Source: a virus. From it: a stretch of 64,000 nucleotides of DNA. The DNA lies in IMG/VR virus record IMGVR_UViG_3300020048_000014, positions 32,001-96,000 of that record. One strand, given 5' to 3'. This document shows, piece by piece, positions 3,008-16,297 of the stretch. Under the pieces are notes generated by a model, which saw only the letters and a list, made by a program, of their open reading frames with translations, ran no database searches and had not been told where the DNA came from. The position numbers and the translations under genes were made by a program. Positions within the stretch are counted from its first letter, which is position 1, and each line of letters opens with the position of its first letter.

Positions 3008-3025
3008 ATTGTAATTTAGTGTTTA
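3008..3025 (-). promoter_or_regulatory. Promoter motif copy 5
   Basis: TAAACACTA AAT TACAAT ACTCAT ATG. Confidence 0.7.
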
Positions 3026-3413: not shown

Positions 3414-4919
3414 TTAGAAGTTTTTTGCGACACGTTCACGGATCTCACTTAGAGTCTGATCATGTGTCAAAATACCATCAAGAAAAACGGTTTTAAGTTC
3501 GCCTCCAGATTCCTCTTCTTCTGTGCATTGGTCCTTTAAAACATATTCACCATCTATTAGATCAACTCTTAGACGACCTTTGGCAGATTTTTTGAGTCCA
3601 TCGTCTGTGATGGGATCTTTATAAATATCATAACCAACACCATCAACCTGCGCCCATGTCGCTTTAATAGCCATTCCGAGGCAATCACGGGTCAATAGGT
3701 TTAAAGTATAAGACCCCACACCGAATACGATATTATTAGATGCAAATCCTTTTTCTTTAAGACGGGTTAAAATATCAAATGCTCTTTGTTGAGTGATGGA
3801 ATCCCCATAAATTAGGCCCACTCGTTGATTCAGCATCTTATAACCTTGTTCAGATACAGTTCCACCGAAAATTTCCCACAGACATTCGACAGAACCTTTA
3901 TATTCATTACTACCCACGGGAGCAGTTGGATCACCACAAATAATATGAACAGGATTACCACTATCAGGTCTAAACACAACTTTAGCTAACCCAAGTTCAT
4001 TAGGTTGCCGATTTAAAATATCATCTTTAAGGATAGTTGCATACTCTGTGATAACTTTAAAATAGTCATAGGTGTCGCTCACAAGACTAACAATTCCAGT
4101 AGGGTAATGTTTTGTGATAGCATCTCTAAAGAATTCTAATTCTCCCGTCAATGCAGTTCCGAGACTACTCACACTATGTTCCGATGCTGGGACAGATGCT
4201 GCAATAAGTTCTTTATCAGCGTCGGCATTGTAATAATCTTCCAGTAGATCAATAGCTGGAATCGTATCGGTCCCCATAAAGCTTAGAAGGAATGCCGCGC
4301 CATTGATAGCAGAATCATGTCTACCACTCATACCACGAAATTCGAACCCATGTCCTTGAAAACATACCCCATCAGTATTACCAACGGTTTCCATCGCAAA
4401 CTTGTTAAACATTTTACGAAATTCAAATGCAATAGTGGCATTAGTGATAGGTTTCCAAGTTTCACAAGAAATAATAGTTTCAAGATAGTTAGTCAACCAA
4501 GCAAATTTAGGGTGAGTATTGGTGATGGTGAAATAAGGAACTTTAACATTAACCCTGCTACCTTCCGGTAACGCTTTGATACGAATTGGTAGATATCCAA
4601 GATCATGCAGTTCCTCAAATCGGGTCATATCGACGTTATCTTTACCTAGATATGCATCACAACGACGTTTAAATTTCTTAATGACAGTTTCCTTTGGAAG
4701 ATTGAAAAATCCATCATTGTAATCATTAATTAAAAAGTCTATAATGAAGTGTTGCAATCCGAAAATTACAGATTTATCGTCATAAAATTCTTTAAGAACT
4801 GGTAGGTAGCTACTATCTCTGGGTGTTTGGTTGGCATAGATATACTCCGTCAATGGGTCCATGAACCCGTGATGAGATAGTTTATATGCGTCCGTCTGTG
4901 TTAAGGGATTTGTAATCAT
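3414..4919 (-). CDS. nicotinamide phosphoribosyltransferase-like (NAMPT / candidate Namat)
   Basis: TDAYKLSH, HGFEFRG, SVPASEHSV, SLVSDTYD, VFRPDSGNP, LIYGDSIT, FGVGS, KDPITDDGLKKSAKG; likely start MITNPL. Confidence 0.9.
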   Translation of the reverse strand: MITNPLTQTDAYKLSHHGFMDPLTEYIYANQTPRDSSYLPVLKEFYDDKSVIFGLQHFIIDFLINDYNDGFFNLPKETVIKKFKRRCDAYLGKDNVDMTRFEELHDLGYLPIRIKALPEGSRVNVKVPYFTITNTHPKFAWLTNYLETIISCETWKPITNATIAFEFRKMFNKFAMETVGNTDGVCFQGHGFEFRGMSGRHDSAINGAAFLLSFMGTDTIPAIDLLEDYYNADADKELIAASVPASEHSVSSLGTALTGELEFFRDAITKHYPTGIVSLVSDTYDYFKVITEYATILKDDILNRQPNELGLAKVVFRPDSGNPVHIICGDPTAPVGSNEYKGSVECLWEIFGGTVSEQGYKMLNQRVGLIYGDSITQQRAFDILTRLKEKGFASNNIVFGVGSYTLNLLTRDCLGMAIKATWAQVDGVGYDIYKDPITDDGLKKSAKGRLRVDLIDGEYVLKDQCTEEEESGGELKTVFLDGILTHDQTLSEIRERVAKNF

Positions 4920-4969
4920 GTTATTTAATTTAATCCTCGCAAAGAGAAACCTTTTTACTAAATGATAGT

Positions 4970-5047
4970 ATGAAGGAAAGAAAATGGACACGAGAAGAAG
5001 AGCAATTTCTTATTGAAAATTATGAATATATGAAAATTATATTTTAG
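4970..5047 (+). pseudogene. 25-codon stub resembling the N-terminal HTH of a homing endonuclease
   Basis: MKERKWTREEEQFLIENYEYMKIIF*, antisense to its neighbours, preceded by TAAATG-N5-ATG. Confidence 0.45.
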
Positions 5048-5054
5048 TGTTTTA
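5036..5054 (-). promoter_or_regulatory. Promoter motif copy 6 (NAMPT-like gene)
   Basis: TAAAACACTA AAA TATAAT; no ATG at the usual +7 position. Confidence 0.65.
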
Positions 5055-5495
5055 TTATAAAATCTCTAGATTATCTTCGACGAATTTTTTCGTGTTTGTA
5101 TACAACTCTCCTTTAGATCCGATAGCAACATAGTCAGGATAAGCTACATTATCAATTGTTCCTTCCAGAGTATCAATCTCGAATGGTTCAACACCTTCTG
5201 GGATTTCTACTAGTGTGGTAGTAGTCTTTTTAATGTATTGTGAGCGATCTCTAAGTTGCAGTTCATGCACAATCTCATATGTATCTCGAAACACATCAGC
5301 TTTGATTGGATATTCCTTACCATCAGGTTGAATGATGATCAAGTCCTCGTCAGGATTGCTCACAAGAGGCTTGTCTGACCATGCAACCTTAAATTCTTCT
5401 ATGCCGTTGCACGCACGAATCGTTACGGTTGTCTTTTTGCGGACAGTTACACGTTTCCAATCACTTGGAATATCTTCAGTTGTTTTTAGTTTCAT
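5055..5495 (-). CDS. hypothetical protein with two internally repeated PGDYG-like modules
   Basis: KKTT...DLIIIQPDGKEYPIKADVFRDTYE and KKTT...PDYVAIGSKGELYTNTKKFVEDNLE. Confidence 0.6.
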   Translation of the reverse strand: MKLKTTEDIPSDWKRVTVRKKTTVTIRACNGIEEFKVAWSDKPLVSNPDEDLIIIQPDGKEYPIKADVFRDTYEIVHELQLRDRSQYIKKTTTTLVEIPEGVEPFEIDTLEGTIDNVAYPDYVAIGSKGELYTNTKKFVEDNLEIL

Positions 5496-6409
5496 AGTTT
5501 AATATCAAAGCAAGTTACTTTACTTGGTAAAAAGGATAGTTCGCCCCAATTACGCTTAGAGTTAGTAGTGTAAAAGTGATCAAAATAGTTTACCATTTTA
5601 TCAAGTCCTTCCATACAGTCATTGTGTGCAGTGAATAACATCAGCTTACCGCAATTCTTTTCTTTTAGTTTTTCACCAAGACCAATGAACGTTCCACCCA
5701 TAGAGGTAATGTCATCAGTAATCAAACATGGATGCCCTTCCAAGTCATCAGCATCAACAAAGAACTCTTTGATACTTCCATCTCGCACATCTCGAATCTT
5801 TTCGCACCGCACAAGATTAAATTGCTTGATCTTAAATGTATTGCTCAAATGCTGAACAATTTTGTTTACTCGTTTTCCAGCTCCTGCATCTGGACAAACA
5901 ATGTTAAAGTGGCGTTCACCTTCACAAGAAGTTATAACTTTCTCCACATATTCCAATTCATCAAGAACAGTAACATTATTAATCAATGCTGGAGTCACTT
6001 CGCTATGAGGGCATAGGATGATCACTTCATCAAATCCACAACCATTAATCATATCAGTAAAGACTTTGATAGTCAATGGTTCACCTTCATTACATACTCG
6101 GTCTTGACGAGCAGCAGGGAAGTATGGTAGAATCAACTTAATGTCCCTAAAGCCCATCCTGCGAGCAGCATCATTAGCGAGAATGATGTCGAATAGATCG
6201 CCAATCTTATTGTATCGTTGAGTAATAATAAGATTGGATTGTGCAGTAAACTCGCATACCGTTGTAATTTGAAAATGTGGTTCTCCGCCCTTGAAGTCAA
6301 ATTTCTTATGATCTAGTCCCACCCCATCCTTGTAGGGTGAGAAGTCTTTATCTAAATTTAAGATATAGGGAAATTCGGATTCAGCTTTCCAGTGAATGTG
6401 TTGACGCAT
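5492..6409 (-). CDS. ribose-phosphate pyrophosphokinase-like (candidate Adps)
   Basis: FKGGE, LILPYFPAARQDR, PHSEV, CPDAGA, KIRD, LITDDITSMGGTF PRTase motif. Confidence 0.9.
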   Translation of the reverse strand: MRQHIHWKAESEFPYILNLDKDFSPYKDGVGLDHKKFDFKGGEPHFQITTVCEFTAQSNLIITQRYNKIGDLFDIILANDAARRMGFRDIKLILPYFPAARQDRVCNEGEPLTIKVFTDMINGCGFDEVIILCPHSEVTPALINNVTVLDELEYVEKVITSCEGERHFNIVCPDAGAGKRVNKIVQHLSNTFKIKQFNLVRCEKIRDVRDGSIKEFFVDADDLEGHPCLITDDITSMGGTFIGLGEKLKEKNCGKLMLFTAHNDCMEGLDKMVNYFDHFYTTNSKRNWGELSFLPSKVTCFDIKL

Positions 6410-6415
6410 ATTAGT

Positions 6416-6434
6416 AGTGTATTATAGTGTTTTA
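6416..6434 (-). promoter_or_regulatory. Promoter motif copy 7
   Basis: TAAAACACTA TAA TACACT ACTAAT ATG. Confidence 0.7.
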
Positions 6435-6439
6435 TTGAT

Positions 6440-6890
6440 AAAAGGGGAATCCGGTTTCGAACTTCAAATCTTCAAATGATCTAAGGTTTGAGTTTTCAAC
6501 TTTTACAACTAACAGTCTGAGTTTTGATATCTAAGTTTTCACCACTAATCGAAATTAGTGTATGTCTTATCAGTATCATTATCGGGGGTCCGTTAAAGGT
6601 TCTTCTCACCAAATGGCGAGGGAGTTGTATTCGAGTCTTATCCACTCGAAACCGGAAATAGGTTTAGATTTCACAGGTCGCTCAATAATCACTATATCGT
6701 TCCACATGATATGATCGTTGGCCAAACGATGAGCCAAGGTGGATTGAATAAAGCTGGCAGCATTAAGCCTTTTACTTTAAGTAATATTGGGTCAAATTGC
6801 CCACGTTGAAGTCTAAAAGTTATATGGGTATGTAGGTTGTCATCCTACTACTGACGAAGCAATGTGTCGTCTACATAGACTACCCAAAAG
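6440..6890 (-). ncRNA. candidate structured non-coding RNA (~450 nt)
   Basis: No ORF; about 10 hairpins; long-range 10-bp helix 6451-6460/6646-6655; repeated AAAACTYAR motifs. Confidence 0.6.
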
Positions 6891-6893
6891 TAT

Positions 6894-7355
6894 TTAAATT
6901 AAAGTTTTTTGATTAAAATCATCGATTTCATCCTGAAGATTTTCAATTAGCTTTTGAGCACCATCACGTAACTCTAGAATTTCTTTAGATGTGATACATG
7001 AATATTTATTGCAAGGAACTATCACATATTTACCCTCTCGATACTCTGACTTTTCAGTTGCCTCGACAGCAGGACCAGAATTTCTAAATTGATTCCAAAA
7101 AGCCAATTCAGATTTTGCCTCTGTAAGTTTAATCAACTTATCAGCAATCCCAATATTCGCCATTGCGATTTTAGTTTTCAAATCAATGAGATATGCCCAC
7201 TCTTCTTGAAGTTGACCTAAGAGGTCAATACTTGAAAGGTCAAGAACTTTACCTTCTTCATATGTATTAAATTCCTCTACTTGTTTTTGTAGTTTGGCAA
7301 TTTTACCAGAAATACGATTTTTTTCTTTTAGTGCTCGGGAGATGTTAAATTTCAT
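6894..7355 (-). CDS. coiled-coil protein (resembles DIP1984-like family, tentative)
   Basis: MKFNISRALKEKNRISGKIAKLQ...LIDLKTKIAMAN...LQDEIDDFN. Confidence 0.6.
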   Translation of the reverse strand: MKFNISRALKEKNRISGKIAKLQKQVEEFNTYEEGKVLDLSSIDLLGQLQEEWAYLIDLKTKIAMANIGIADKLIKLTEAKSELAFWNQFRNSGPAVEATEKSEYREGKYVIVPCNKYSCITSKEILELRDGAQKLIENLQDEIDDFNQKTLI

Positions 7356-7515
7356 ATTGTTTTTTTTCTATTCTAAAGTTGTGATTCATTATAAGTCCGG
7401 TTTCCCAAGAGTCAAGACATTCATTCCAAATATCTTGAATCGAATCATCTGGGCATCGAATACATTCTCTGATTGCGTCGGTAATTGATTCACATATTCG
7501 CTGTTCTTGATTCAT
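7345..7515 (-). CDS. small hypothetical protein
   Basis: ORF track; likely start MNQEQR. Confidence 0.5.
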   Translation of the reverse strand: MNQEQRICESITDAIRECIRCPDDSIQDIWNECLDSWETGLIMNHNFRIEKKQYEI

Positions 7516-7647
7516 ATTATTAAAAAATGGCAAAGGTTACTGACTTTTACAGTATTATTATATCCACGACCCTCGGCATGGTATATGTTTGATCCACATC
7601 ATTGGACGGTGTTGGAGAGCATGTTGGGTAATGATTCCAACAAACTT

Positions 7648-7665
7648 ATTATATATTAGTGTTTA
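7648..7665 (-). promoter_or_regulatory. Promoter motif copy 8
   Basis: TAAACACTA ATA TATAAT; followed by non-coding sequence, not an ATG. Confidence 0.7.
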
Positions 7666-7676
7666 ATCTGTCAAAA

Positions 7677-7751
7677 TGGCACCAAGGGCTAGAATCGAAC
7701 TACATCTTGGCTGTTACAAACAGCCTGCTCTACCAATTGAGCTACCTTGGT
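7677..7751 (-). tRNA. tRNA-Thr(UGU) with encoded CCA
   Basis: ACCAAGG acceptor / CCTTGGT-G-CCA; D arm GCTC/GAGC; anticodon arm GGCTG-TTTGTAA-CAGCC; T loop TTCGATT. Confidence 0.85.
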
Positions 7752-7756
7752 TTTAA

Positions 7757-7981
7757 TGAAATTGATTTAAAGTTTTGCTAATACGCCAAAAGAGAATTAG
7801 ACCTTACCATTTACGGGGTGTCCTTTTACTATCCACGATGATTTTCCAAAGAATATACGAATCACAGTCAATCACGAACTCATCATATATAGTGGAACAT
7901 TTCCACTGTCTTAGGAACGCTTCGCTCTACTTATTTTAAGCGATTGCTGCTTCTAAGCCAACGCCCTTTAAATCAATTTCA
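7757..7981 (-). ncRNA. candidate ncRNA mimicking the 23S rRNA GTPase-associated centre (H43/H44)
   Basis: 16-bp perfect terminal inverted repeat enclosing GGCGTTGGCTTAGAAGCAGCAATCGC and GCGTATTAGC. Confidence 0.7.
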
Positions 7982-7988
7982 AAATTTA

Positions 7989-8276
7989 TCAATATGTATG
8001 AATTGCGTTATTTCGCAGTTCTACCCCCAGATCACGTGTATCAACATTAACCCACTCGCTCACATGTTGGTTCTTCTTAACGAGAACTCGTTGATTTCCG
8101 CCTAGTAGTCGGAAGCTGCCATCAGGATTACGTTCTGCCATGATCGAAAAGATCTTACGAGTCTTTAATTGATCAGGATTACGCATCCATGCTTTGTCTT
8201 TACGTGAACTAACGGCTGTCTTGGTTTTCTTTTTCATCGTCTGTGTTTTGTTTTGTTGTGTGTTCTGTGTCTTCAT
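7989..8276 (-). CDS. hypothetical basic protein
   Basis: ORF track; likely start MKTQN. Confidence 0.65.
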   Translation of the reverse strand: MKTQNTQQNKTQTMKKKTKTAVSSRKDKAWMRNPDQLKTRKIFSIMAERNPDGSFRLLGGNQRVLVKKNQHVSEWVNVDTRDLGVELRNNAIHTY

Positions 8277-8553: not shown

Positions 8554-9225
8554 TTATCGTATCGTGGAATCGTGGTGATCCAGTATATTGACTGATTTGG
8601 TGGACATCACATCCTCAATGTCATCGAATGACCATATCTTACCACAGTCGATTCCAATGTCAAGTGTTTTTCCGAGTGGGAATTCTGGTAGTCTCTCAGG
8701 ATCGGATAGATGACTATGGCCGCTCAAATGAATAGTTCTTCTATTTGAGCCATTCCAAATCTTGCATGGGAAATGGTTCATAACAATCCGTTGTTTCCCA
8801 ACTTGAATTTCTACATGATTTCCAACAAATGTTAGATTAGGAATTCTTTTAAAGTTAGCGGGGTAAAGTTCGCCACAACACCCCAAACTTTTGGCAAGTT
8901 CTTCTTTATAGATGCGGTATGTATTCGACTCATGATTGCCCCAGAGTGCTCTAATGTCTTTACATTTTATACAGTGCAACCATTCTACACATTTTTCATC
9001 TGTAGCATTTAAAAACATGTCACCGAGAAAATATAAAATCGCATTCTCTGGGACAGTATCATTGATCAAATTCTGAATCTTAATCGCAGCATCTTCTGCT
9101 GAAGTATATCCACGCTGTTTCCAAATCGGAACAGCCCAAGAAGATGGATCATGGAAAATATGCCAGTCGCTACTAAAATAGAGCTTGTGTCTATCTTCGT
9201 GTTTAAATTTCTCGATTTTATACAT
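8554..9225 (-). CDS. calcineurin-like metallophosphoesterase
   Basis: SDWH, LGD, GNHE, MNHFP, GHSH, DIGID. Confidence 0.85.
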   Translation of the reverse strand: MYKIEKFKHEDRHKLYFSSDWHIFHDPSSWAVPIWKQRGYTSAEDAAIKIQNLINDTVPENAILYFLGDMFLNATDEKCVEWLHCIKCKDIRALWGNHESNTYRIYKEELAKSLGCCGELYPANFKRIPNLTFVGNHVEIQVGKQRIVMNHFPCKIWNGSNRRTIHLSGHSHLSDPERLPEFPLGKTLDIGIDCGKIWSFDDIEDVMSTKSVNILDHHDSTIR

Positions 9226-9461: not shown

Positions 9462-9480
9462 ATTATAGGTTAGTGTTTTA
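9462..9480 (-). promoter_or_regulatory. Promoter motif copy 9
   Basis: TAAAACACTA ACC TATAAT ATGAGT ATG. Confidence 0.75.
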
Positions 9481-10560
9481 TAAATTACTTTCGATACCAG
9501 TTTTGATTACTTTATCCTCCAATACTTTATTGTCCAAGATAGTAAAGGCGGCACCTTTTCTCCAATCAGGAAAATGTTGAACAATTTCCATGGCTTGATC
9601 CTTTCGGGTGAATGAATCTCCTCGCACATTATGCACTACTAGACGCACTTTGTCAAGTTGTTCTAAAGTTTTATTATAAGCATTGACAATTTTAAGCATG
9701 TCATCCTTTAGTCTTTCGGCAACTTCGAAATCTATTGCAACTTCGATGTATTTATAGAAATCCTCATACTTGGTGAATCGTTCAGTAGTCATGAATAGAT
9801 CAACAACTTGATTGATATTCTTGATACCAGTGCAAATTTTATGCAATTCACAATATTCACTGGCTTTTATCTTCTTCAAGGTTTGACCATCTGGCGAATA
9901 TAGAACAACGCCTTCCTTACCTCTCCAAGCAGCAACGTCATTGAGACATTCTTCGATGGAATCATACTCATACTTTTGAGGACGCTTAAAACCATATTGT
10001 CTACCTATTACATCCAAATAATTTTGGGGATAATATGAACAATCAGCATTTGAAACCGCACCCACTAAGATCAAATCAGGTTCATTAGATTCTCTCAATA
10101 CTATGATATTGTTGGGAGTGACCCACTCAAACAACCAAGTTACCCCAACTGCTTCAGAAAAATCTTTTTGTTCATTGAAAAAATATATATACTTCAATAG
10201 TAAAGTATCGATTTCATGACCATTAGCCATTTGACGAGCATCAGTAGTTCCACGGGTTCTACAAATCCATGAACCCTTATATCTTGATACAATCAATAAC
10301 GATCCATCCAACTTATGACGAGCATCGATCTTCCACGACTTATCCCAAGGTTGAAAATCGGGTTGTTCACTGAAATTAGTAAACTTTAAAAATCCTTGTG
10401 ATACCACAAAATTATCAGACTTACGGAGAATACAAGAACGGAATCTTGCATTTTCATCATTCCACTTACATCCGACATGATTCGGAGTGATAAGCCAGCA
10501 ATCATCTCCTGCGATAACGCAGTCTTTGAAAGTGAATTCTTCAGTCGTTGGTAGCTTCAT
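9478..10560 (-). CDS. RNA ligase, T4 Rnl1-like
   Basis: GFLKFTNF, KLDGSL (motif I), TRG, LFEWVTPNNIIV, EGVVL, KKIKASEY. Confidence 0.8.
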   Translation of the reverse strand: MKLPTTEEFTFKDCVIAGDDCWLITPNHVGCKWNDENARFRSCILRKSDNFVVSQGFLKFTNFSEQPDFQPWDKSWKIDARHKLDGSLLIVSRYKGSWICRTRGTTDARQMANGHEIDTLLLKYIYFFNEQKDFSEAVGVTWLFEWVTPNNIIVLRESNEPDLILVGAVSNADCSYYPQNYLDVIGRQYGFKRPQKYEYDSIEECLNDVAAWRGKEGVVLYSPDGQTLKKIKASEYCELHKICTGIKNINQVVDLFMTTERFTKYEDFYKYIEVAIDFEVAERLKDDMLKIVNAYNKTLEQLDKVRLVVHNVRGDSFTRKDQAMEIVQHFPDWRKGAAFTILDNKVLEDKVIKTGIESNL

Positions 10561-11242
10561 ACTCAGAATTATGGTTTAGTGTTTTATCAAGCAAAACCAC
10601 TGTCTTCTTATCAATTTCGTAATATACTTGAGTATTTTCATTCACGAAACGATCCCATGCATCTTGCAAATATTCTGGAATTTCTGGAACATCCGCATAC
10701 TCATCTTCATTAATCTCTCCCAATCTTTCCAAGTAATCCTTAATCATGATTTCTAGTTGACAACTTTTTAGTGTATGTTTTTTAGTTGAACCATATACAT
10801 AATCTGGGAGAGGATAATCATAATCCCAATTATCCCTCAAGTCATCGATGGCATAATAGAAAGTATCACCTTCGATGATAGGATCGCTGTAGTCGGCTTC
10901 TTCTACCTTTATAGCACTATCATAGATGCGCTTATCTCTAGCTTCACAATAAGCATGCATAGCCTTGGAATTACACATCTTAATCTCATCTTCAGTTAGA
11001 TACTTTTCGAGAACTTGTTTTTGGATGGATTCCATCATATATTCAGTGACTTTATCTTTATCTCCAACATTGAAACATTGCTCTGTTTCTGAATTCATGA
11101 TGAGAGATTTAAATGTCTTCCCGGTATCTAATACAGGATTGATCCAGTTATTCAAAACCTTGAGAATTTCTGCCCATCTTTCTTCTGTGAATAGTGGTTG
11201 AAAATATTCTAAAGGATAATTTGTTAGTTGTATATAATTCAT
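10541..11242 (-). CDS. hypothetical protein
   Basis: 233-aa ORF. Confidence 0.75.
   Translation of the reverse strand: MNYIQLTNYPLEYFQPLFTEERWAEILKVLNNWINPVLDTGKTFKSLIMNSETEQCFNVGDKDKVTEYMMESIQKQVLEKYLTEDEIKMCNSKAMHAYCEARDKRIYDSAIKVEEADYSDPIIEGDTFYYAIDDLRDNWDYDYPLPDYVYGSTKKHTLKSCQLEIMIKDYLERLGEINEDEYADVPEIPEYLQDAWDRFVNENTQVYYEIDKKTVVLLDKTLNHNSEYEATND
10568..10586 (-). promoter_or_regulatory. Promoter motif copy 10 (inside upstream CDS)
   Basis: TAAAACACTA AAC CATAAT TCTGAGT ATG. Confidence 0.7.
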
Positions 11243-11643
11243 AGTAGTTTTAAATTTTCTCTGATTGTTTTCTCCTGTCTTTGGAGAGTTTCTAATGGCA
11301 CGTTGTGTACATTTTTCCCATCATGTCTGTTCTCTAACACGATAAATGTTACAATGAATCCGACAGCCTTTGCTGTATCGACATACCTCTTCCAGTCTTG
11401 CTCTTTGGCATTAACATTAGCAATGATGATATCTCTATCGGTGAGTGTCAACGCATCTACAAACTTGTTCCAACAATAGCCATGAGCCTTACTCAAACCT
11501 GCTGAATACCAATTATAATTACCATCCTTGTCAGTAAAGTAATCATCGGCGCAGCATACTGCCGCATCTGGAAATAGATTACAAAATGTGGATTTTCCAG
11601 ATCCAGAGCAACCTTTTAATATCAAGAGATGACGTTGTTTCAT
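11239..11643 (-). CDS. polynucleotide kinase-like P-loop protein (AAA_33)
   Basis: GCSGSGKST, CADDYF, IANVN, HNVPLETLQRQ. Confidence 0.85.
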   Translation of the reverse strand: MKQRHLLILKGCSGSGKSTFCNLFPDAAVCCADDYFTDKDGNYNWYSAGLSKAHGYCWNKFVDALTLTDRDIIIANVNAKEQDWKRYVDTAKAVGFIVTFIVLENRHDGKNVHNVPLETLQRQEKTIRENLKLL

Positions 11644-12668: not shown

Positions 12669-12686
12669 ATTATATATTAGTGTTTA
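12669..12686 (-). promoter_or_regulatory. Promoter motif copy 12
   Basis: TAAACACTA ATA TATAAT AACTTT ATG. Confidence 0.75.
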
Positions 12687-13336
12687 ATGTATCTCTCTGA
12701 AACTGTTAGTGGTGTCAATGAAGAAAGTTCACCATCGTCAATCAAAAAAACTTCTCCATTTCTAGGAGTTTTCCATTTTTCAAATTCTTCAACAGTCCAA
12801 CCAAGGAGATACATCAGGTATAGTTTATTAAACTCCCCATGCGCTACTATGATATTATGTTCATATTTACTAGTAGATTTGAGCCACATATCAAATAGAA
12901 CTACTCTCTGATACGCATCAGCAAAACTTTCACCATTCAAGGGTCGATAAAAGAAATTAAAATGTCCCTCATTTTTTTTACCAGATTCAACAATATCTCT
13001 TAACGATCCCCAAGCTCTCTCGACCAAAAGTGGTGATTCTTTAAATTTATTAATTTTATACCCCTCAAAGGAAGATAGTCTGCCACGTATTAAATTTGCA
13101 GATTGCGTAGTCCTTTTATATGGACTATAAAACATATTACAGTGAATTGAATCAACTGATGGATATTCTTTCAAAGTATTCGGATAATCCAATAAATCCA
13201 TCAATCTATCACCTGTTTGGATGGATTGATGTATCCCATTCTGACTCAATTTAATTTCACTATCAAGTTTTCGGAAGTATTCCGATGGATCTATGTTACC
13301 CATCGATTCAAAATGTCTAACTAAATAAATTTTCAT
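12677..13336 (-). CDS. histidine phosphatase (phosphoglycerate-mutase family)
   Basis: LVRHFES, SPYKRTTQSA, LVERAWG, GESF, IIVAHG. Confidence 0.85.
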   Translation of the reverse strand: MKIYLVRHFESMGNIDPSEYFRKLDSEIKLSQNGIHQSIQTGDRLMDLLDYPNTLKEYPSVDSIHCNMFYSPYKRTTQSANLIRGRLSSFEGYKINKFKESPLLVERAWGSLRDIVESGKKNEGHFNFFYRPLNGESFADAYQRVVLFDMWLKSTSKYEHNIIVAHGEFNKLYLMYLLGWTVEEFEKWKTPRNGEVFLIDDGELSSLTPLTVSERYIKH

Positions 13337-14905: not shown

Positions 14906-16297
14906 TTAACTTTCTTCTTCCATGTCAGATTCTCCAGCATCCCTAGCTTTACATTCTGCTAAATTGAATTTCGGACTCTTAAATTTAAGAACTGGCTTAG
15001 TTTCCTTAGAATTGATTTTCAAAACAATACCTTCGTTGACGACACCCGTTTTGCAGAGTTCGCATGTTTTATCAAGATACTTTTCATGTAACTTGTGAAG
15101 AAAGTTCTCTCCAAATGAACTATCTAGGGGAATTTCAGGGAATAAATCCGTTACCTTTCCTTTGTAGTATACCGGGACATGTTTTAAACCATGATCTTCA
15201 CAGAATCCTTCAATTTCATTCCAAGAAAATTCAGTCACTTTTCCTTCTTCATTGGTGTGTGTGACTCTATAAACCCAAAATTCTGATTCGCCTTGAGTTA
15301 TCCCATAATCATAATTCTTCTGGATATTCCTATTAGGGGAGGCCCACCCTAAAATTTCTCCATATACTGAAATTCCTTTAGGGATATTACCATCCAATTC
15401 TTTAGCGTGTTTACCCCAAACGTCTTCACTATATGTCCCATCACGTTTATTTTTGATGATCGAACGACTGGAATATACAAAGAGATAATCAATCGCTGGA
15501 ATGTCAAACCCAATCATTTTTTTAAACATTGAAAATAATGACAACGATTTCTTGCACAGCAGATTAGCAAAAATTGCCGATGTTCCATGAATTTTGTTAG
15601 AGATTGTGATATTATCATTTGGATCGACGATAAAAATATTACGACCAAGTTGTTCAGTTTTCCCGTGGAAATACCACTGACCGTCAACAATTTGAGATTT
15701 GATACCCTCAGATTTAATAGCACCGTAATACCATTTGACGACAGGATAGATAGCCAATCTAATTGGTCTAGGAAGGCTACCAATGCTCTTGGATACCCAT
15801 TTAGGGATCTTGGGTTGTTTGCTATTCGGATCACCTTGAACTTTTGTATCTGGTCGGATATACTTCGTTACAAGAAGGTCATCACCAACTGTATCAAAAT
15901 TTTCCCCGACATGGAAGATATCATCCTTTAAGTCATAATATCTAATAAGTTCTGAAACTTTAAATAAAAATCCCTGAGACGGAACACCACGTAAATTAAT
16001 TGCCTTAACTCTTCGTCCTTTAGAAGAGAAGTAAGATTTTGTTACACCATCAGCATTCAACACGGGATCATTAAAAAGATTTGCCCATGACAAGAATTTG
16101 GCGGATAAACAAGACTCAATAGGGAAATACGCCAACTTATCATTTTGGGAATATACTCCTTTCCCGACAATAATACTATTTCCAAAAATTTCAACGATTT
16201 CTAATCTGTCAGCAGATGGATGAGTTTTAATTTCTGGACACTTGATTACGACTGCTGCGTAATTTGGGTCACAATTTTCACTTATGCTCAATTTCAT
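14906..16297 (-). CDS. RNA ligase, DRB0094-like, with N-terminal OB/tRNA-binding-like domain
   Basis: HPSADRL, VKAINLRGVPSQG, KIHGTS, VYGEILG, EGIVLK, LKFKSPKF. Confidence 0.8.
   Translation of the reverse strand: MKLSISENCDPNYAAVVIKCPEIKTHPSADRLEIVEIFGNSIIVGKGVYSQNDKLAYFPIESCLSAKFLSWANLFNDPVLNADGVTKSYFSSKGRRVKAINLRGVPSQGFLFKVSELIRYYDLKDDIFHVGENFDTVGDDLLVTKYIRPDTKVQGDPNSKQPKIPKWVSKSIGSLPRPIRLAIYPVVKWYYGAIKSEGIKSQIVDGQWYFHGKTEQLGRNIFIVDPNDNITISNKIHGTSAIFANLLCKKSLSLFSMFKKMIGFDIPAIDYLFVYSSRSIIKNKRDGTYSEDVWGKHAKELDGNIPKGISVYGEILGWASPNRNIQKNYDYGITQGESEFWVYRVTHTNEEGKVTEFSWNEIEGFCEDHGLKHVPVYYKGKVTDLFPEIPLDSSFGENFLHKLHEKYLDKTCELCKTGVVNEGIVLKINSKETKPVLKFKSPKFNLAECKARDAGESDMEEES

What the first reader, a model, noticed from the sequence alone, without database searches (positions are those of the whole stretch)
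6440..7355. ~450-nt highly structured RNA directly 3' of a coiled-coil gene: possible protein-RNA system
Seen: in an otherwise gap-free region, 450 nt without an ORF start right after the stop of 6894..7355. Minus-strand hairpins include GGGTA..TACCC enclosing GACGA/TCGTC and GTAGG/CCTAC, a GCTCA/TGAGC junction with two inner stems, CTCGCCATTTGGTGAG and CACTAA-TTTCGA-TTAGTG. A 10-bp long-range helix CCGGTTTCGA/TCGAAACCGG (6646-6655 with 6451-6460) competes with a local TTCGAG/CTCGAA hairpin, so the two folds are mutually exclusive. The long helix encloses an A-rich stretch with repeated motifs GAAAACTTAG, CAAAACTCAG, GAAAACTCAA and AAACCTTAG (6481-6540) plus TTTGAAG twice. Inference: a protein-binding RNA (sponge, antitoxin-like, or scaffold for the upstream protein) or a switch upstream of the NAD genes.
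Basis: partly seen in the sequence, partly recalled or inferred. Interest (0 to 1): 0.7.

Follow-up and report, generated by a model that had tools for sequence, protein, structure and literature searches.

The report
Unnamed RNA partnered with DUF6847 protein
Behind a small helical phage protein lies a roughly 207-base folded RNA that follows the same protein in dozens of other phages and in bacterial RNA-repair operons, so the two look like an undescribed protein-RNA pair, sitting where Ro60 and Y RNA sit in Salmonella.

Summary
The gap and its hairpins are real, but the conserved element is about 207 nt (window 6450-6656, minus strand), not 450.

- **Fold:** a 13-bp helix joins its two ends and beats all 200 shuffles. 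The element folds at z -4.0; the remaining 237 nt of the gap fold at z -0.6.
- **Link to the protein:** the 153-aa protein is a distant DUF6847/DIP1984 relative with the 3KDQ fold and no known function. Homologues were found at 44 viral and 58 bacterial loci. A profile or covariance model detects the RNA directly downstream at 38 of 43 viral and 45 of 55 bacterial loci tested, whatever gene comes next.
- **Shared design:** paired 5' and 3' ends with a different sequence at each locus, GAU-N3 repeats, an optional hairpin, and 4-5 A-rich repeats. In a 43-sequence alignment 80% of cells pair, against 52% when shuffled.
- **Bacterial context:** in Kiritimatiellae, Victivallales and related genomes the order is rtcR, sigma-54 promoter, DUF6847, RNA, (rtcA), rtcB. 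That is the place of rsr and the Y RNAs in Salmonella. No Ro60 was found in four such genomes.
- **Prior description:** no Rfam 15 family or paper matches.

The reading as a switch for the NAD genes is rejected. Protein-RNA binding and function are inferred, not shown. The scan had not seen this on other DNA.

The parts
7388..7415 (-). Sigma-70-like promoter ahead of the protein gene, and probable start of the protein-plus-RNA transcript
   Evidence: 11 of 12 consensus positions with a 16-nt spacer. This is a consensus match only.
6894..7355 (-). Gene for a 153-aa protein of three helices and a beta-hairpin, a distant DUF6847 / DIP1984-family relative
   Evidence: AlphaFold2 pLDDT 93.6. Foldseek finds 3kdq at TM 0.75. 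24 of 34 relatives match Pfam PF20935. NCBIfam DIP1984_fam matches full length but below its cut-off. Homologues at 44 viral and 58 bacterial loci.
6826..6885 (-). Accessory three-way hairpin domain: an outer stem enclosing hairpins at 6853-6871 and 6832-6848
   Evidence: The 17-nt inner hairpin is identical in L008 and L111, and the other stems differ in sequence. The domain is present only in the closest relatives.
6657..6825 (-). Spacer with local hairpins, not conserved
   Evidence: Nearly absent in L111 and shorter in L008. The 237 nt at 6657-6893 fold no better than shuffles, z -0.59.
6450..6656 (-). Core structured RNA, the conserved element
   Evidence: Fold z -3.97. A core profile built without the window hits it at E 5e-4. 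BLASTN matches the L008 and L007 elements at 1e-8 and 4e-8. It is the top hit of covariance model R3 in the whole window, at 6453-6653 with 21.1 bits and E 0.06.
6644..6656 (-). 5' strand of the closing helix P1
   Evidence: Pairs with 6450-6462 over 13 bp including one G-U. Equivalent helices with other sequences occur in L009, L011, L012, L013, L022, L030 and more.
6605..6620 (-). Local hairpin in the variable 5' domain
   Evidence: Present in both the MFE and the centroid fold. This domain varies between loci.
6566..6583 (-). GAU-N3 repeat motif, three copies
   Evidence: Conserved across viral and bacterial loci.
6543..6560 (-). Variable hairpin P4 between the GAU repeats and the A-rich repeats
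   Evidence: A hairpin with a different sequence sits at this place in L006-L011 and in the PVC loci. It is absent in the T4-like group.
6481..6540 (-). A-rich, G-poor repeat array, 4-5 copies of an AAAAYUYA-like motif, predicted mostly unpaired
   Evidence: The best-conserved columns of the family, kept A-rich even in genomes of 56-65% G+C.
6450..6462 (-). 3' strand of the closing helix P1
6438..6447 (-). C-run and T-run after P1, a possible 3' end
   Evidence: A similar C/T-rich tail or a full terminator hairpin follows P1 in relatives. The simple scan calls no canonical terminator here.
6420..6432 (-). Phage promoter-like motif of the next gene. It marks the boundary and is not part of the element.
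   Evidence: 10 copies in the window, all on the minus strand; 0 of 100 shuffles reach 10.

Best explanation
Window 6450-6656 (minus strand) encodes a stable, trans-acting structured RNA of about 207 nt. It is made from the 3' part of the transcript of the DUF6847-like gene and works together with that protein as one module, most likely a ribonucleoprotein.

The RNA is a rod formed by its paired 5' and 3' ends. The rod holds open a large A-rich, largely single-stranded platform carrying GAU-N3 repeats and 4-5 AAAAYUYA-like repeats.

In bacteria the module is the first unit of RtcR/sigma-54-controlled operons, ahead of rtcA and rtcB, so it would be switched on together with RNA end-healing and sealing enzymes when RNA is damaged. 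That is the position Ro60 (Rsr) and the Y RNAs hold in Salmonella. By analogy, I propose that the rod and repeats dock the protein and that the open platform captures a damaged RNA, a nuclease or a repair enzyme. The phage would carry its own copy to keep translation RNAs working, or to absorb host RNA-cutting defences, during infection.

Shown: the RNA is conserved, its structure covaries, it is coupled to the gene, and it sits in the operon. Inferred: RNA-protein binding, action in trans, and any role in RNA damage.
For: 1. **Coupling to the gene.** Almost every homologue of the protein is followed by an ORF-free gap of 170-590 nt, often before a convergent gene. Profiles or the covariance model detect the RNA there at 38 of 43 viral and 45 of 55 bacterial loci. 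No orphan copy was seen; the single extra hit is a tandem repeat.
2. **Structure.**
   - The closing helix has a different sequence at each locus.
   - In 22 of 44 non-redundant loci a locus's own flanks pair better than every GC-matched pairing with another locus's flank, with mean energies of -35.5 against -23.4 kcal/mol.
   - In model-based alignments 78.7% and 80.0% of cells pair, against 57% and 52% when shuffled and 39-47% when partners are slid. All 19 pairs show changes on both sides.
   - G-U pairs, and terminators on the gene's strand, point to RNA made from that strand.
3. **The window's copy.** Fold z is -3.97. The helix beats 200 of 200 shuffles. A core profile built without the window gives E 5e-4. 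It is the top hit of R3 in the window.
4. **Operon context.**
   - rtcR is divergent, and DUF6847, the RNA, rtcA and rtcB follow in order.
   - 21 of 58 bacterial loci have an Rtc gene within 2.5 kb.
   - A sigma-54 consensus lies ahead of the gene at 11 loci.
   - No TROVE/Ro60 gene was found in four such genomes or in the phage.
   - Salmonella's rtc operon carries rsr and Y RNAs (PMC7790460, read).
5. **Phage context.** A tRNA gene, a phosphoesterase, a histidine phosphatase, a kinase-like gene and an RNA ligase (PF09414) lie within 0.3-9 kb on the same strand.
Against: - No experiment and no expression data exist for any member.
- The protein family is near neutral (median pI 6.2), which is unusual for a dedicated RNA binder, and nothing shows that it binds RNA.
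- In phages the link to RNA repair is loose. RtcB occurs in only 1 of 5 records that carry the pair, and far from it. The T4-like group places the pair between topoisomerase and capsid genes.
- 37 of 58 bacterial loci show no Rtc gene within 2.5 kb.
- The covariance-model match to the window's own copy is weak: E 0.06 in the window, 0.19 in the whole phage genome, where a noise hit scores slightly higher.
- The pair counts come from alignments fitted to the structure.
- Only the closing rod and one hairpin are modelled. The interior fold is unresolved.
Confidence: 0.55

Rival explanations
1. Decoy or substrate RNA. The exposed A-rich repeats mimic the sites cut by RNA-targeting toxins or defence nucleases, such as anticodon nucleases or HEPN RNases. 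The RNA soaks them up, or is itself cut and resealed, while the protein only stabilises it. This is a more specific form of the trans-acting reading, without a need for an RNP scaffold.
For: The array holds 4-5 repeated single-stranded motifs, kept A-rich even in GC-rich genomes. It would be co-induced with RtcA and RtcB, which act on cut RNA ends. tRNA or tRNA-like genes lie next to the module at several loci and in the window. A competitive-inhibitor role has been proposed for YrlA in the Salmonella operon (PMC7790460).
Against: No nuclease is known to prefer these motifs. It does not explain why the protein gene is always attached. Most phage carriers examined lack RtcB.
Confidence: 0.15
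2. Cis-acting 3' UTR or attenuator. The structure controls the stability or translation of the DUF6847 mRNA, or read-through into rtcA and rtcB in bacteria, and has no function as a free RNA.
For: It always directly follows the stop codon, by 5-20 nt at most loci. In bacteria a terminator lies between it and rtcA or rtcB, as in attenuators.
Against: 200 nt with conserved single-stranded repeats and a covarying rod is far more than mRNA stabilisation needs. In phages the next gene is unrelated or convergent, so control of read-through cannot be the shared function. In the window, L008 and L010, 170-240 nt separate the stop codon from the element.
Confidence: 0.15
3. Toxin-antitoxin-like pair. 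The protein is harmful and the RNA neutralises it, as in type III systems, which would explain why the module moves between phages and bacterial operons.
For: A tight two-part module, found in phages and at scattered bacterial contexts. One bacterial cluster carries the automatic label 'putative Septicolysin'.
Against: The order is reversed and there are no 30-40-nt tandem repeats, unlike ToxI-type antitoxins. The protein has no nuclease or toxin domain. Conserved placement as the first gene of RtcR operons across several PVC lineages argues for an integrated role.
Confidence: 0.07
4. DNA-level element, such as an origin with iterons or a promoter or operator cluster, or a leader or switch for the downstream NAD genes.
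For: A-rich short repeats resemble iterons. The region precedes the Prs-like/Nampt-like pair.
Against: Covariation of a helix spanning 190-210 nt, with G-U pairs, fits RNA rather than duplex DNA. The element sits inside bacterial operons. No related locus has the NAD genes downstream. A separate promoter-like motif precedes the Prs-like gene.
Confidence: 0.03

Closest known systems
Ro60 (Rsr) with Y RNAs (YrlA, YrlB) in the Salmonella rsr-yrlBA-rtcBA operon
   Same: A protein gene followed by structured non-coding RNA, placed between the RtcR-dependent sigma-54 promoter and the rtc repair genes. The RNA is built as a stem of paired 5' and 3' ends closing a large open region. Both also occur in phages (PMC7790460; PMC4201824).
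   Different: No TROVE/Ro60 gene in the phage or in four carrier genomes. The protein is a 150-aa helical bundle, not a ring. No Rfam Y RNA or YrlA match even at E of 1 or less. There is no tRNA-like domain inside the RNA. It is an analogue, not a member.
DIP1984 family / PDB 3KDQ (Corynebacterium diphtheriae, function unknown); Pfam DUF6847
   Same: The same fold over the full length, TM 0.75. Profile matches are full length.
   Different: The window's protein is below every curated cut-off: NCBIfam 18.9 bits against 70, and no Pfam hit of its own. Nothing is known about the function or an RNA partner of DIP1984.
6S RNA
   Same: About 200 nt, a long rod with an open central region, and it acts by binding a protein.
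   Different: No Rfam 6S match. Here the open region is one large A-rich loop with repeats, not a promoter-like bubble, and the RNA is tied to a dedicated small gene.
Type III toxin-antitoxin systems (ToxIN and relatives)
   Same: A protein gene paired with an adjacent structured RNA, common on phages and mobile elements.
   Different: There the antitoxin RNA comes first and consists of tandem repeats of about 36 nt cut by the toxin. Here the RNA comes second, the repeats are 8-10 nt, and the protein has no nuclease fold.
Large orphan phage and metagenome RNAs such as GOLLD and ROOL (from memory)
   Same: Structured non-coding RNAs of unknown function, carried by phages and often near tRNA genes.
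   Different: Those are 500-800 nt, are Rfam families (no match here) and have no fixed protein partner gene.

Membership tests
Y RNA / YrlA (Ro60-associated RNAs) | Encoded next to a Ro60/TROVE gene | tested here: not met
   No PF05731 match in the phage genome or in four bacterial carrier genomes, while controls ring in D. radiodurans and B. thetaiotaomicron.
Y RNA / YrlA (Ro60-associated RNAs) | Matches the Rfam covariance models | tested here: not met
   Nothing in the window or in 40 related loci at gathering score. Nothing at E of 1 or less in 8 loci, and nothing relevant at E of 10 or less in window 6000-8000.
Y RNA / YrlA (Ro60-associated RNAs) | Stem of paired 5' and 3' ends closing a large loop or module | tested here: met
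   The closing rod is present at nearly all loci and covaries. This is a resemblance of design only.
Pfam DUF6847 / NCBIfam DIP1984 family (protein) | Score above the curated cut-off of the family model | tested here: not met
   The window protein has no Pfam hit at E of 0.1 or less. NCBIfam gives 18.9 bits against a cut-off of 70. 24 of 34 relatives match PF20935 at E of 0.1 or less.
Pfam DUF6847 / NCBIfam DIP1984 family (protein) | Same fold as the solved member 3KDQ | tested here: met
   Foldseek E 4e-4, TM 0.75 over the full length, from a model with pLDDT 93.6.
Type III antitoxin RNA | Tandem repeats of about 30-40 nt upstream of a nuclease toxin gene | tested here: not met
   The RNA is downstream, its repeats are 8-10 nt, and the protein has no nuclease domain.
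tmRNA/SmpB or tRNA-like RNA | tRNA-like acceptor and T arm recognised by ARAGORN or Rfam | tested here: not met
   ARAGORN finds only tRNA-Thr at 7677-7751 in the window, and Rfam finds only that tRNA. The T4-like group's RNA ends in a 4-bp GC stem followed by ACCA, which is suggestive only.
RtcR-controlled RNA repair operon (bacterial relatives) | rtcR divergent, a sigma-54 promoter, and rtcA and/or rtcB downstream | tested here: met
   Pfam RtcR, RTC and RtcB at E 1e-66 to 1e-107 in L101, L074 and L058. 21 of 58 loci. Sigma-54 consensus at 11 loci. This does not hold for the phage itself, which has no RtcB.

The most novel reading that the evidence does not exclude
The pair is a second, independent solution to what Ro60 and Y RNA do: a widespread RNP of bacteria and phages dedicated to RNA damage. 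The rod-closed RNA would be the working part. Its A-rich platform could pair with or hold broken tRNA or rRNA for RtcB- or Rnl-type ligases. Alternatively, because its own 5' and 3' ends are held side by side, the RNA could itself be joined by these ligases into a circle that acts as a nuclease-resistant decoy.
Probability: 0.2. Interest if true: 0.9.

Novelty: new variant of a known kind. Interest (0 to 1): 0.72.

Why it matters
What Rtc operons repair, and why they carry RNPs such as Ro60 with Y RNA, is still open. A second, unrelated protein-plus-RNA module in the same operon slot gives an independent way to approach that question. It occurs in PVC bacteria, Bacteroidota and many aquatic phages, and the carrier genomes checked have no Ro60.

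It also does three other things:
- It adds a sizeable structured RNA class that is absent from Rfam 15.
- It gives the orphan DUF6847/DIP1984 fold (PDB 3KDQ) a testable context.
- It suggests that phages import RNA-damage RNPs, which bears on the contest between phages and RNA-cutting defences.

Tried and rejected
- **Rfam.** Gathering and E-value modes on the window and 48 loci returned only tRNAs.
- **RNAalifold on plain MAFFT alignments.** The window group gave zero pairs because the helices, which differ in sequence, were misaligned. Trimming sequences to the helix ends did not make MAFFT align the ends.
- **Covariance models.** R1 and R2, seeded on the T4-like group, did not find the window's copy. 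R3 finds it only at E 0.06, and at 0.19 in the whole genome beside noise hits.
- **duplexfold against mononucleotide shuffles.** This discriminated poorly (median z -1.8), so I replaced it with the comparison of each locus's own flanks against other loci's flanks.
- **Public collections.** No DNA match among GenBank phages. Only two uncultured huge-phage records encode the protein. No plasmid match.
- **Protein family libraries.** PHROGs and PADLOC gave nothing meaningful for the protein.
- **Literature.** DUF6847, 3KDQ, DIP1984, septicolysin, and RtcR/RtcB combined with ncRNA returned nothing relevant. Burroughs and Aravind 2016 on RNA repair systems is not held, so I could not check whether it mentions this protein.
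- **RNA repair genes in other phages.** RtcB was found in 1 of 5 phage records with the pair. T4 Rnl1 was found in 0 of 5, but that control rang nowhere, so the result is uninformative.
- **Interior pairing.** Pairing between the GAU repeats and the first A-rich repeat appears in the window and L007 but not consistently elsewhere, so I dropped it.
- **Anticodon-loop idea.** The repeats might complement anticodon loops of Gln, Lys or Glu tRNAs. I considered this only by eye and do not claim it.

Full report
**Where the window comes from.** It is bases 32001-96000 of a 196.7-kb, 96%-complete record of an uncultured phage. Genes around the finding all lie on the minus strand. In order they are tRNA-Thr (7677-7751), a 62-aa ORF, the 153-aa gene (6894-7355), a 484-nt interval without any ORF of 50 aa or more (6410-6893), a Prs-like gene (5492-6409), a 146-aa gene and a NAPRTase-family gene (3414-4991). 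The last pair may be a NARP1-like set, as another first-stage note proposed. I confirmed only the two Pfam domains.

**Checking the observation.**
- The long-range helix runs 13 bp, 6644-6656 with 6450-6462. No dinucleotide shuffle of the gap produced so strong a helix at that span (0 of 200).
- Folding energy separates the gap into two parts. The 216 nt at 6445-6660 fold with z -3.97 (0 of 200 shuffles as good). The 237 nt between that element and the stop codon give z -0.59.

The element is therefore real, but it is about 207 nt rather than 450, and nothing indicates a two-state switch.

**The protein.**
- It has no Pfam or PHROG hit of its own.
- Pattern searches recovered homologues at 44 viral loci (25-58% identity) and 58 loci in bacterial genome assemblies.
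- 24 of 34 aligned relatives match Pfam DUF6847. NCBIfam's DIP1984 family matches over the full length but below its cut-off.
- An AlphaFold2 model from the 34-sequence alignment is confident (pLDDT 93.6): three long helices and a beta-hairpin.
- Its only clear structural neighbour is 3KDQ, an uncharacterised protein from Corynebacterium diphtheriae (TM 0.75).
- The family is near neutral (median pI 6.2). No function is recorded in the literature I could search.

**The gene is followed by the same RNA almost everywhere.**
- Nearly every homologue is followed by an ORF-free stretch of 170-590 nt, frequently before a gene on the opposite strand.
- Reading those stretches shows one design. A 5' segment starts, at most loci, a few bases after the stop codon and pairs with a 3' segment 190-210 nt further on. 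Inside come one or two variable hairpins, a run of GAU-N3 repeats, an optional hairpin, and then 4-5 A-rich, G-poor repeats. A C/T-rich tail or a full terminator hairpin follows.
- A sequence profile of the core, built without the window, finds the window's copy at E 5e-4 and also finds bacterial copies that were not in the profile.
- The window's element matches those of L008 and L007 by BLASTN at about 1e-8.
- Combining two iterated profiles and the covariance model, the RNA is detected directly downstream at 38 of 43 viral and 45 of 55 bacterial loci. Several of the rest show the closing helix or the motifs by eye.
- A profile seeded only on GC-rich bacterial copies reaches viral copies on iteration: L016 first, then L006 and L015. 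L006 is from the window's own group.
- I saw no copy without the gene. The one extra model hit is a tandem repeat.

**Is the structure more than chance?**
- The closing helix has unrelated sequences at different loci, for example 13 perfect pairs each in L009 and L011, 14 in L012, 11 in L013 and 10 in L030.
- For 44 non-redundant loci I paired each locus's 5' flank with its own 3' flank and, as a control, with GC-matched flanks from other loci. Own pairs averaged -35.5 kcal/mol against -23.4 for crossed pairs. In 22 loci the own pair beat every crossed pair. For the window's own copy the margin was small: -21.2 kcal/mol against a crossed mean of -18.1, with 9 of 58 crossed pairs as good.
- Three rounds of covariance-model building gave alignments of 25 and 43 sequences. 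In these, 78.7% and 80.0% of cells form standard pairs, against 57% and 52% after shuffling and 39-47% when partners are slid. All 19 modelled pairs change on both sides, and no shuffle reaches the covariation score.
- These alignments are fitted to the model, so the counts lean towards it. The flank comparison above does not depend on any alignment.
- G-U pairs, and terminators on the gene's strand, indicate an RNA read from that strand.
- The final model, which never saw the window, places its best hit in the 64-kb window at 6453-6653 on the minus strand. The score is weak (21.1 bits, E 0.06; 0.19 genome-wide beside noise hits).
- The interior of the RNA is not resolved. The A-rich array has no evident partner strand and is probably exposed.

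**Bacterial context.**
- In Kiritimatiellae, Victivallales, Lentisphaerae and Verrucomicrobia assemblies, the gene and its RNA lie between a divergent rtcR and rtcA and/or rtcB (Pfam E 1e-66 to 1e-107).
- 21 of 58 bacterial loci have an Rtc gene within 2.5 kb.
- A strict sigma-54 promoter consensus precedes the DUF6847 gene at 11 loci.
- This is the slot that rsr (Ro60) and the Y RNAs yrlB and yrlA fill in the Salmonella rsr-yrlBA-rtcBA operon, which RtcR switches on when it binds tRNA fragments ending in cyclic phosphate (PMC7790460).
- Four carrier genomes and the phage have no TROVE/Ro60 gene, while the controls ring. The assemblies may be incomplete.
- Other bacterial copies, in Bacteroidota, sit beside an ECF sigma factor or an M48 peptidase.

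**Phage context.**
- In this phage the module is close to a tRNA gene, a phosphoesterase (8554-9225), a kinase-like gene (11239-11643, below the Pfam cut-off), a histidine phosphatase (12677-13336) and an RNA ligase (14906-16297).
- L007 and L009 share the phosphoesterase, and L022 has a homologue of 9478-10560.
- The link is not general. The T4-like group places the pair between topoisomerase and capsid genes. Only one of five phage records has RtcB, and it lies far from the pair.
- The phage in hand has no RtcB.

**Boundaries in the window.**
- A sigma-70-like promoter (7388-7415) precedes the protein gene.
- After the RNA's 3' strand come a C-run and a T-run (6438-6447), then a motif at 6420-6432. 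That motif occurs ten times in the window, always on the minus strand and ahead of gene starts where checked (0 of 100 shuffles reach ten).
- The Prs-like gene therefore appears to have its own promoter, and no related locus has NAD genes downstream. The NAD-switch idea can be set aside.
- Directly after the stop codon, the three-way hairpin domain at 6826-6885 is shared with L008 and L111, including an identical 17-nt hairpin. In L111 it abuts the core RNA, whereas the window has about 170 unconserved bases in between.

**Interpretation.**
- What is shown: a conserved, covarying RNA structure, genetically locked to one protein family across phages and several bacterial phyla, and built into RtcR operons.
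- What is inferred: that the RNA is a stable trans-acting molecule, that it binds the protein, and that the pair acts on damaged RNA or on the nucleases that cause the damage.
- I rate an RNP acting in the RNA-damage response as most likely (0.55). A pure decoy or substrate and a cis-acting 3' element are the main rivals (0.15 each). A toxin-antitoxin-like pair (0.07) and DNA-level or NAD-switch readings (0.03) are less likely.
- It works like Ro60 with Y RNA in placement and overall RNA design, but it fails every membership test for that family.

**Novelty.** No Rfam 15 family matches any of 48 loci or the window. No searchable paper describes the protein or an RNA beside it. The one review most likely to mention the protein could not be read. 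This scan had not recorded it on other DNA. I class it as a new variant of a known kind, an operon-encoded protein-RNA module of RNA-repair systems, made of a new RNA family and an orphan protein fold.

Noticed in passing
window 1779-22068, minus strand (10 sites, e.g. 6420-6432, 5040-5052, 3012-3024, 7652-7664): A 13-nt motif of the form AAACACTA-N-AATA recurs ten times, always on the minus strand. The sites I checked lie just ahead of gene starts. It is probably this phage group's own promoter, and similar motifs follow the RNA in L006 and L009.
   Followed up: partly
L053:873-944, L055:2393-2464, L065:2385-2455, L102:1551-1622: In Kiritimatiellae loci a tRNA or tRNA-like gene (Trp-cca or Arg-tcg by ARAGORN) ends about 30-35 nt before the DUF6847 start. 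In L053 it lies between the sigma-54-type promoter and the gene, so it may be an RtcR-induced tRNA-like RNA, which recalls the tRNA-like YrlA.
   Followed up: partly
T4-like group, e.g. L018:3110-3125, L046:3115-3130: In this group the RNA's closing helix ends in a four-pair GC stem followed by ACCA and then, about 8 nt later, a terminator hairpin. That looks like a tRNA-like 3' end. The window's copy lacks it.
   Followed up: no
window 9478-10560 (-): First-stage notes call this ORF Rnl1-like, but it has no Pfam hit at E of 0.1 or less. A clear RNA ligase (PF09414 with an OB-fold domain) is at 14906-16297 instead.
   Followed up: partly
window 3414-6409 (-): A Prs-like gene (Pribosyltran_N) and a NAPRTase-family gene with a 146-aa gene between them, as in the NARP1 idea of another note. 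Only the domains were confirmed. The pair is not linked to the RNA module at any other locus.
   Followed up: partly
L009:3170-3500: Downstream of the RNA and a promoter-like motif, L009 carries a second non-coding stretch with two copies of a roughly 25-nt segment of the CCAGCTACCAG type before the next promoter-like motif. It remains unexplained.
   Followed up: no
L093:4700-4920: A tRNA gene followed by a tandem array of AAGAATTAAGGATT-like units. It produced a false covariance-model hit.
   Followed up: partly
window 7757-7981 (-): Another first-stage note reads this stretch, between the tRNA and the 108-aa gene, as a mimic of the 23S rRNA GTPase-associated centre. I did not examine it. 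If it is real, several unusual RNAs lie in this one region.
   Followed up: no
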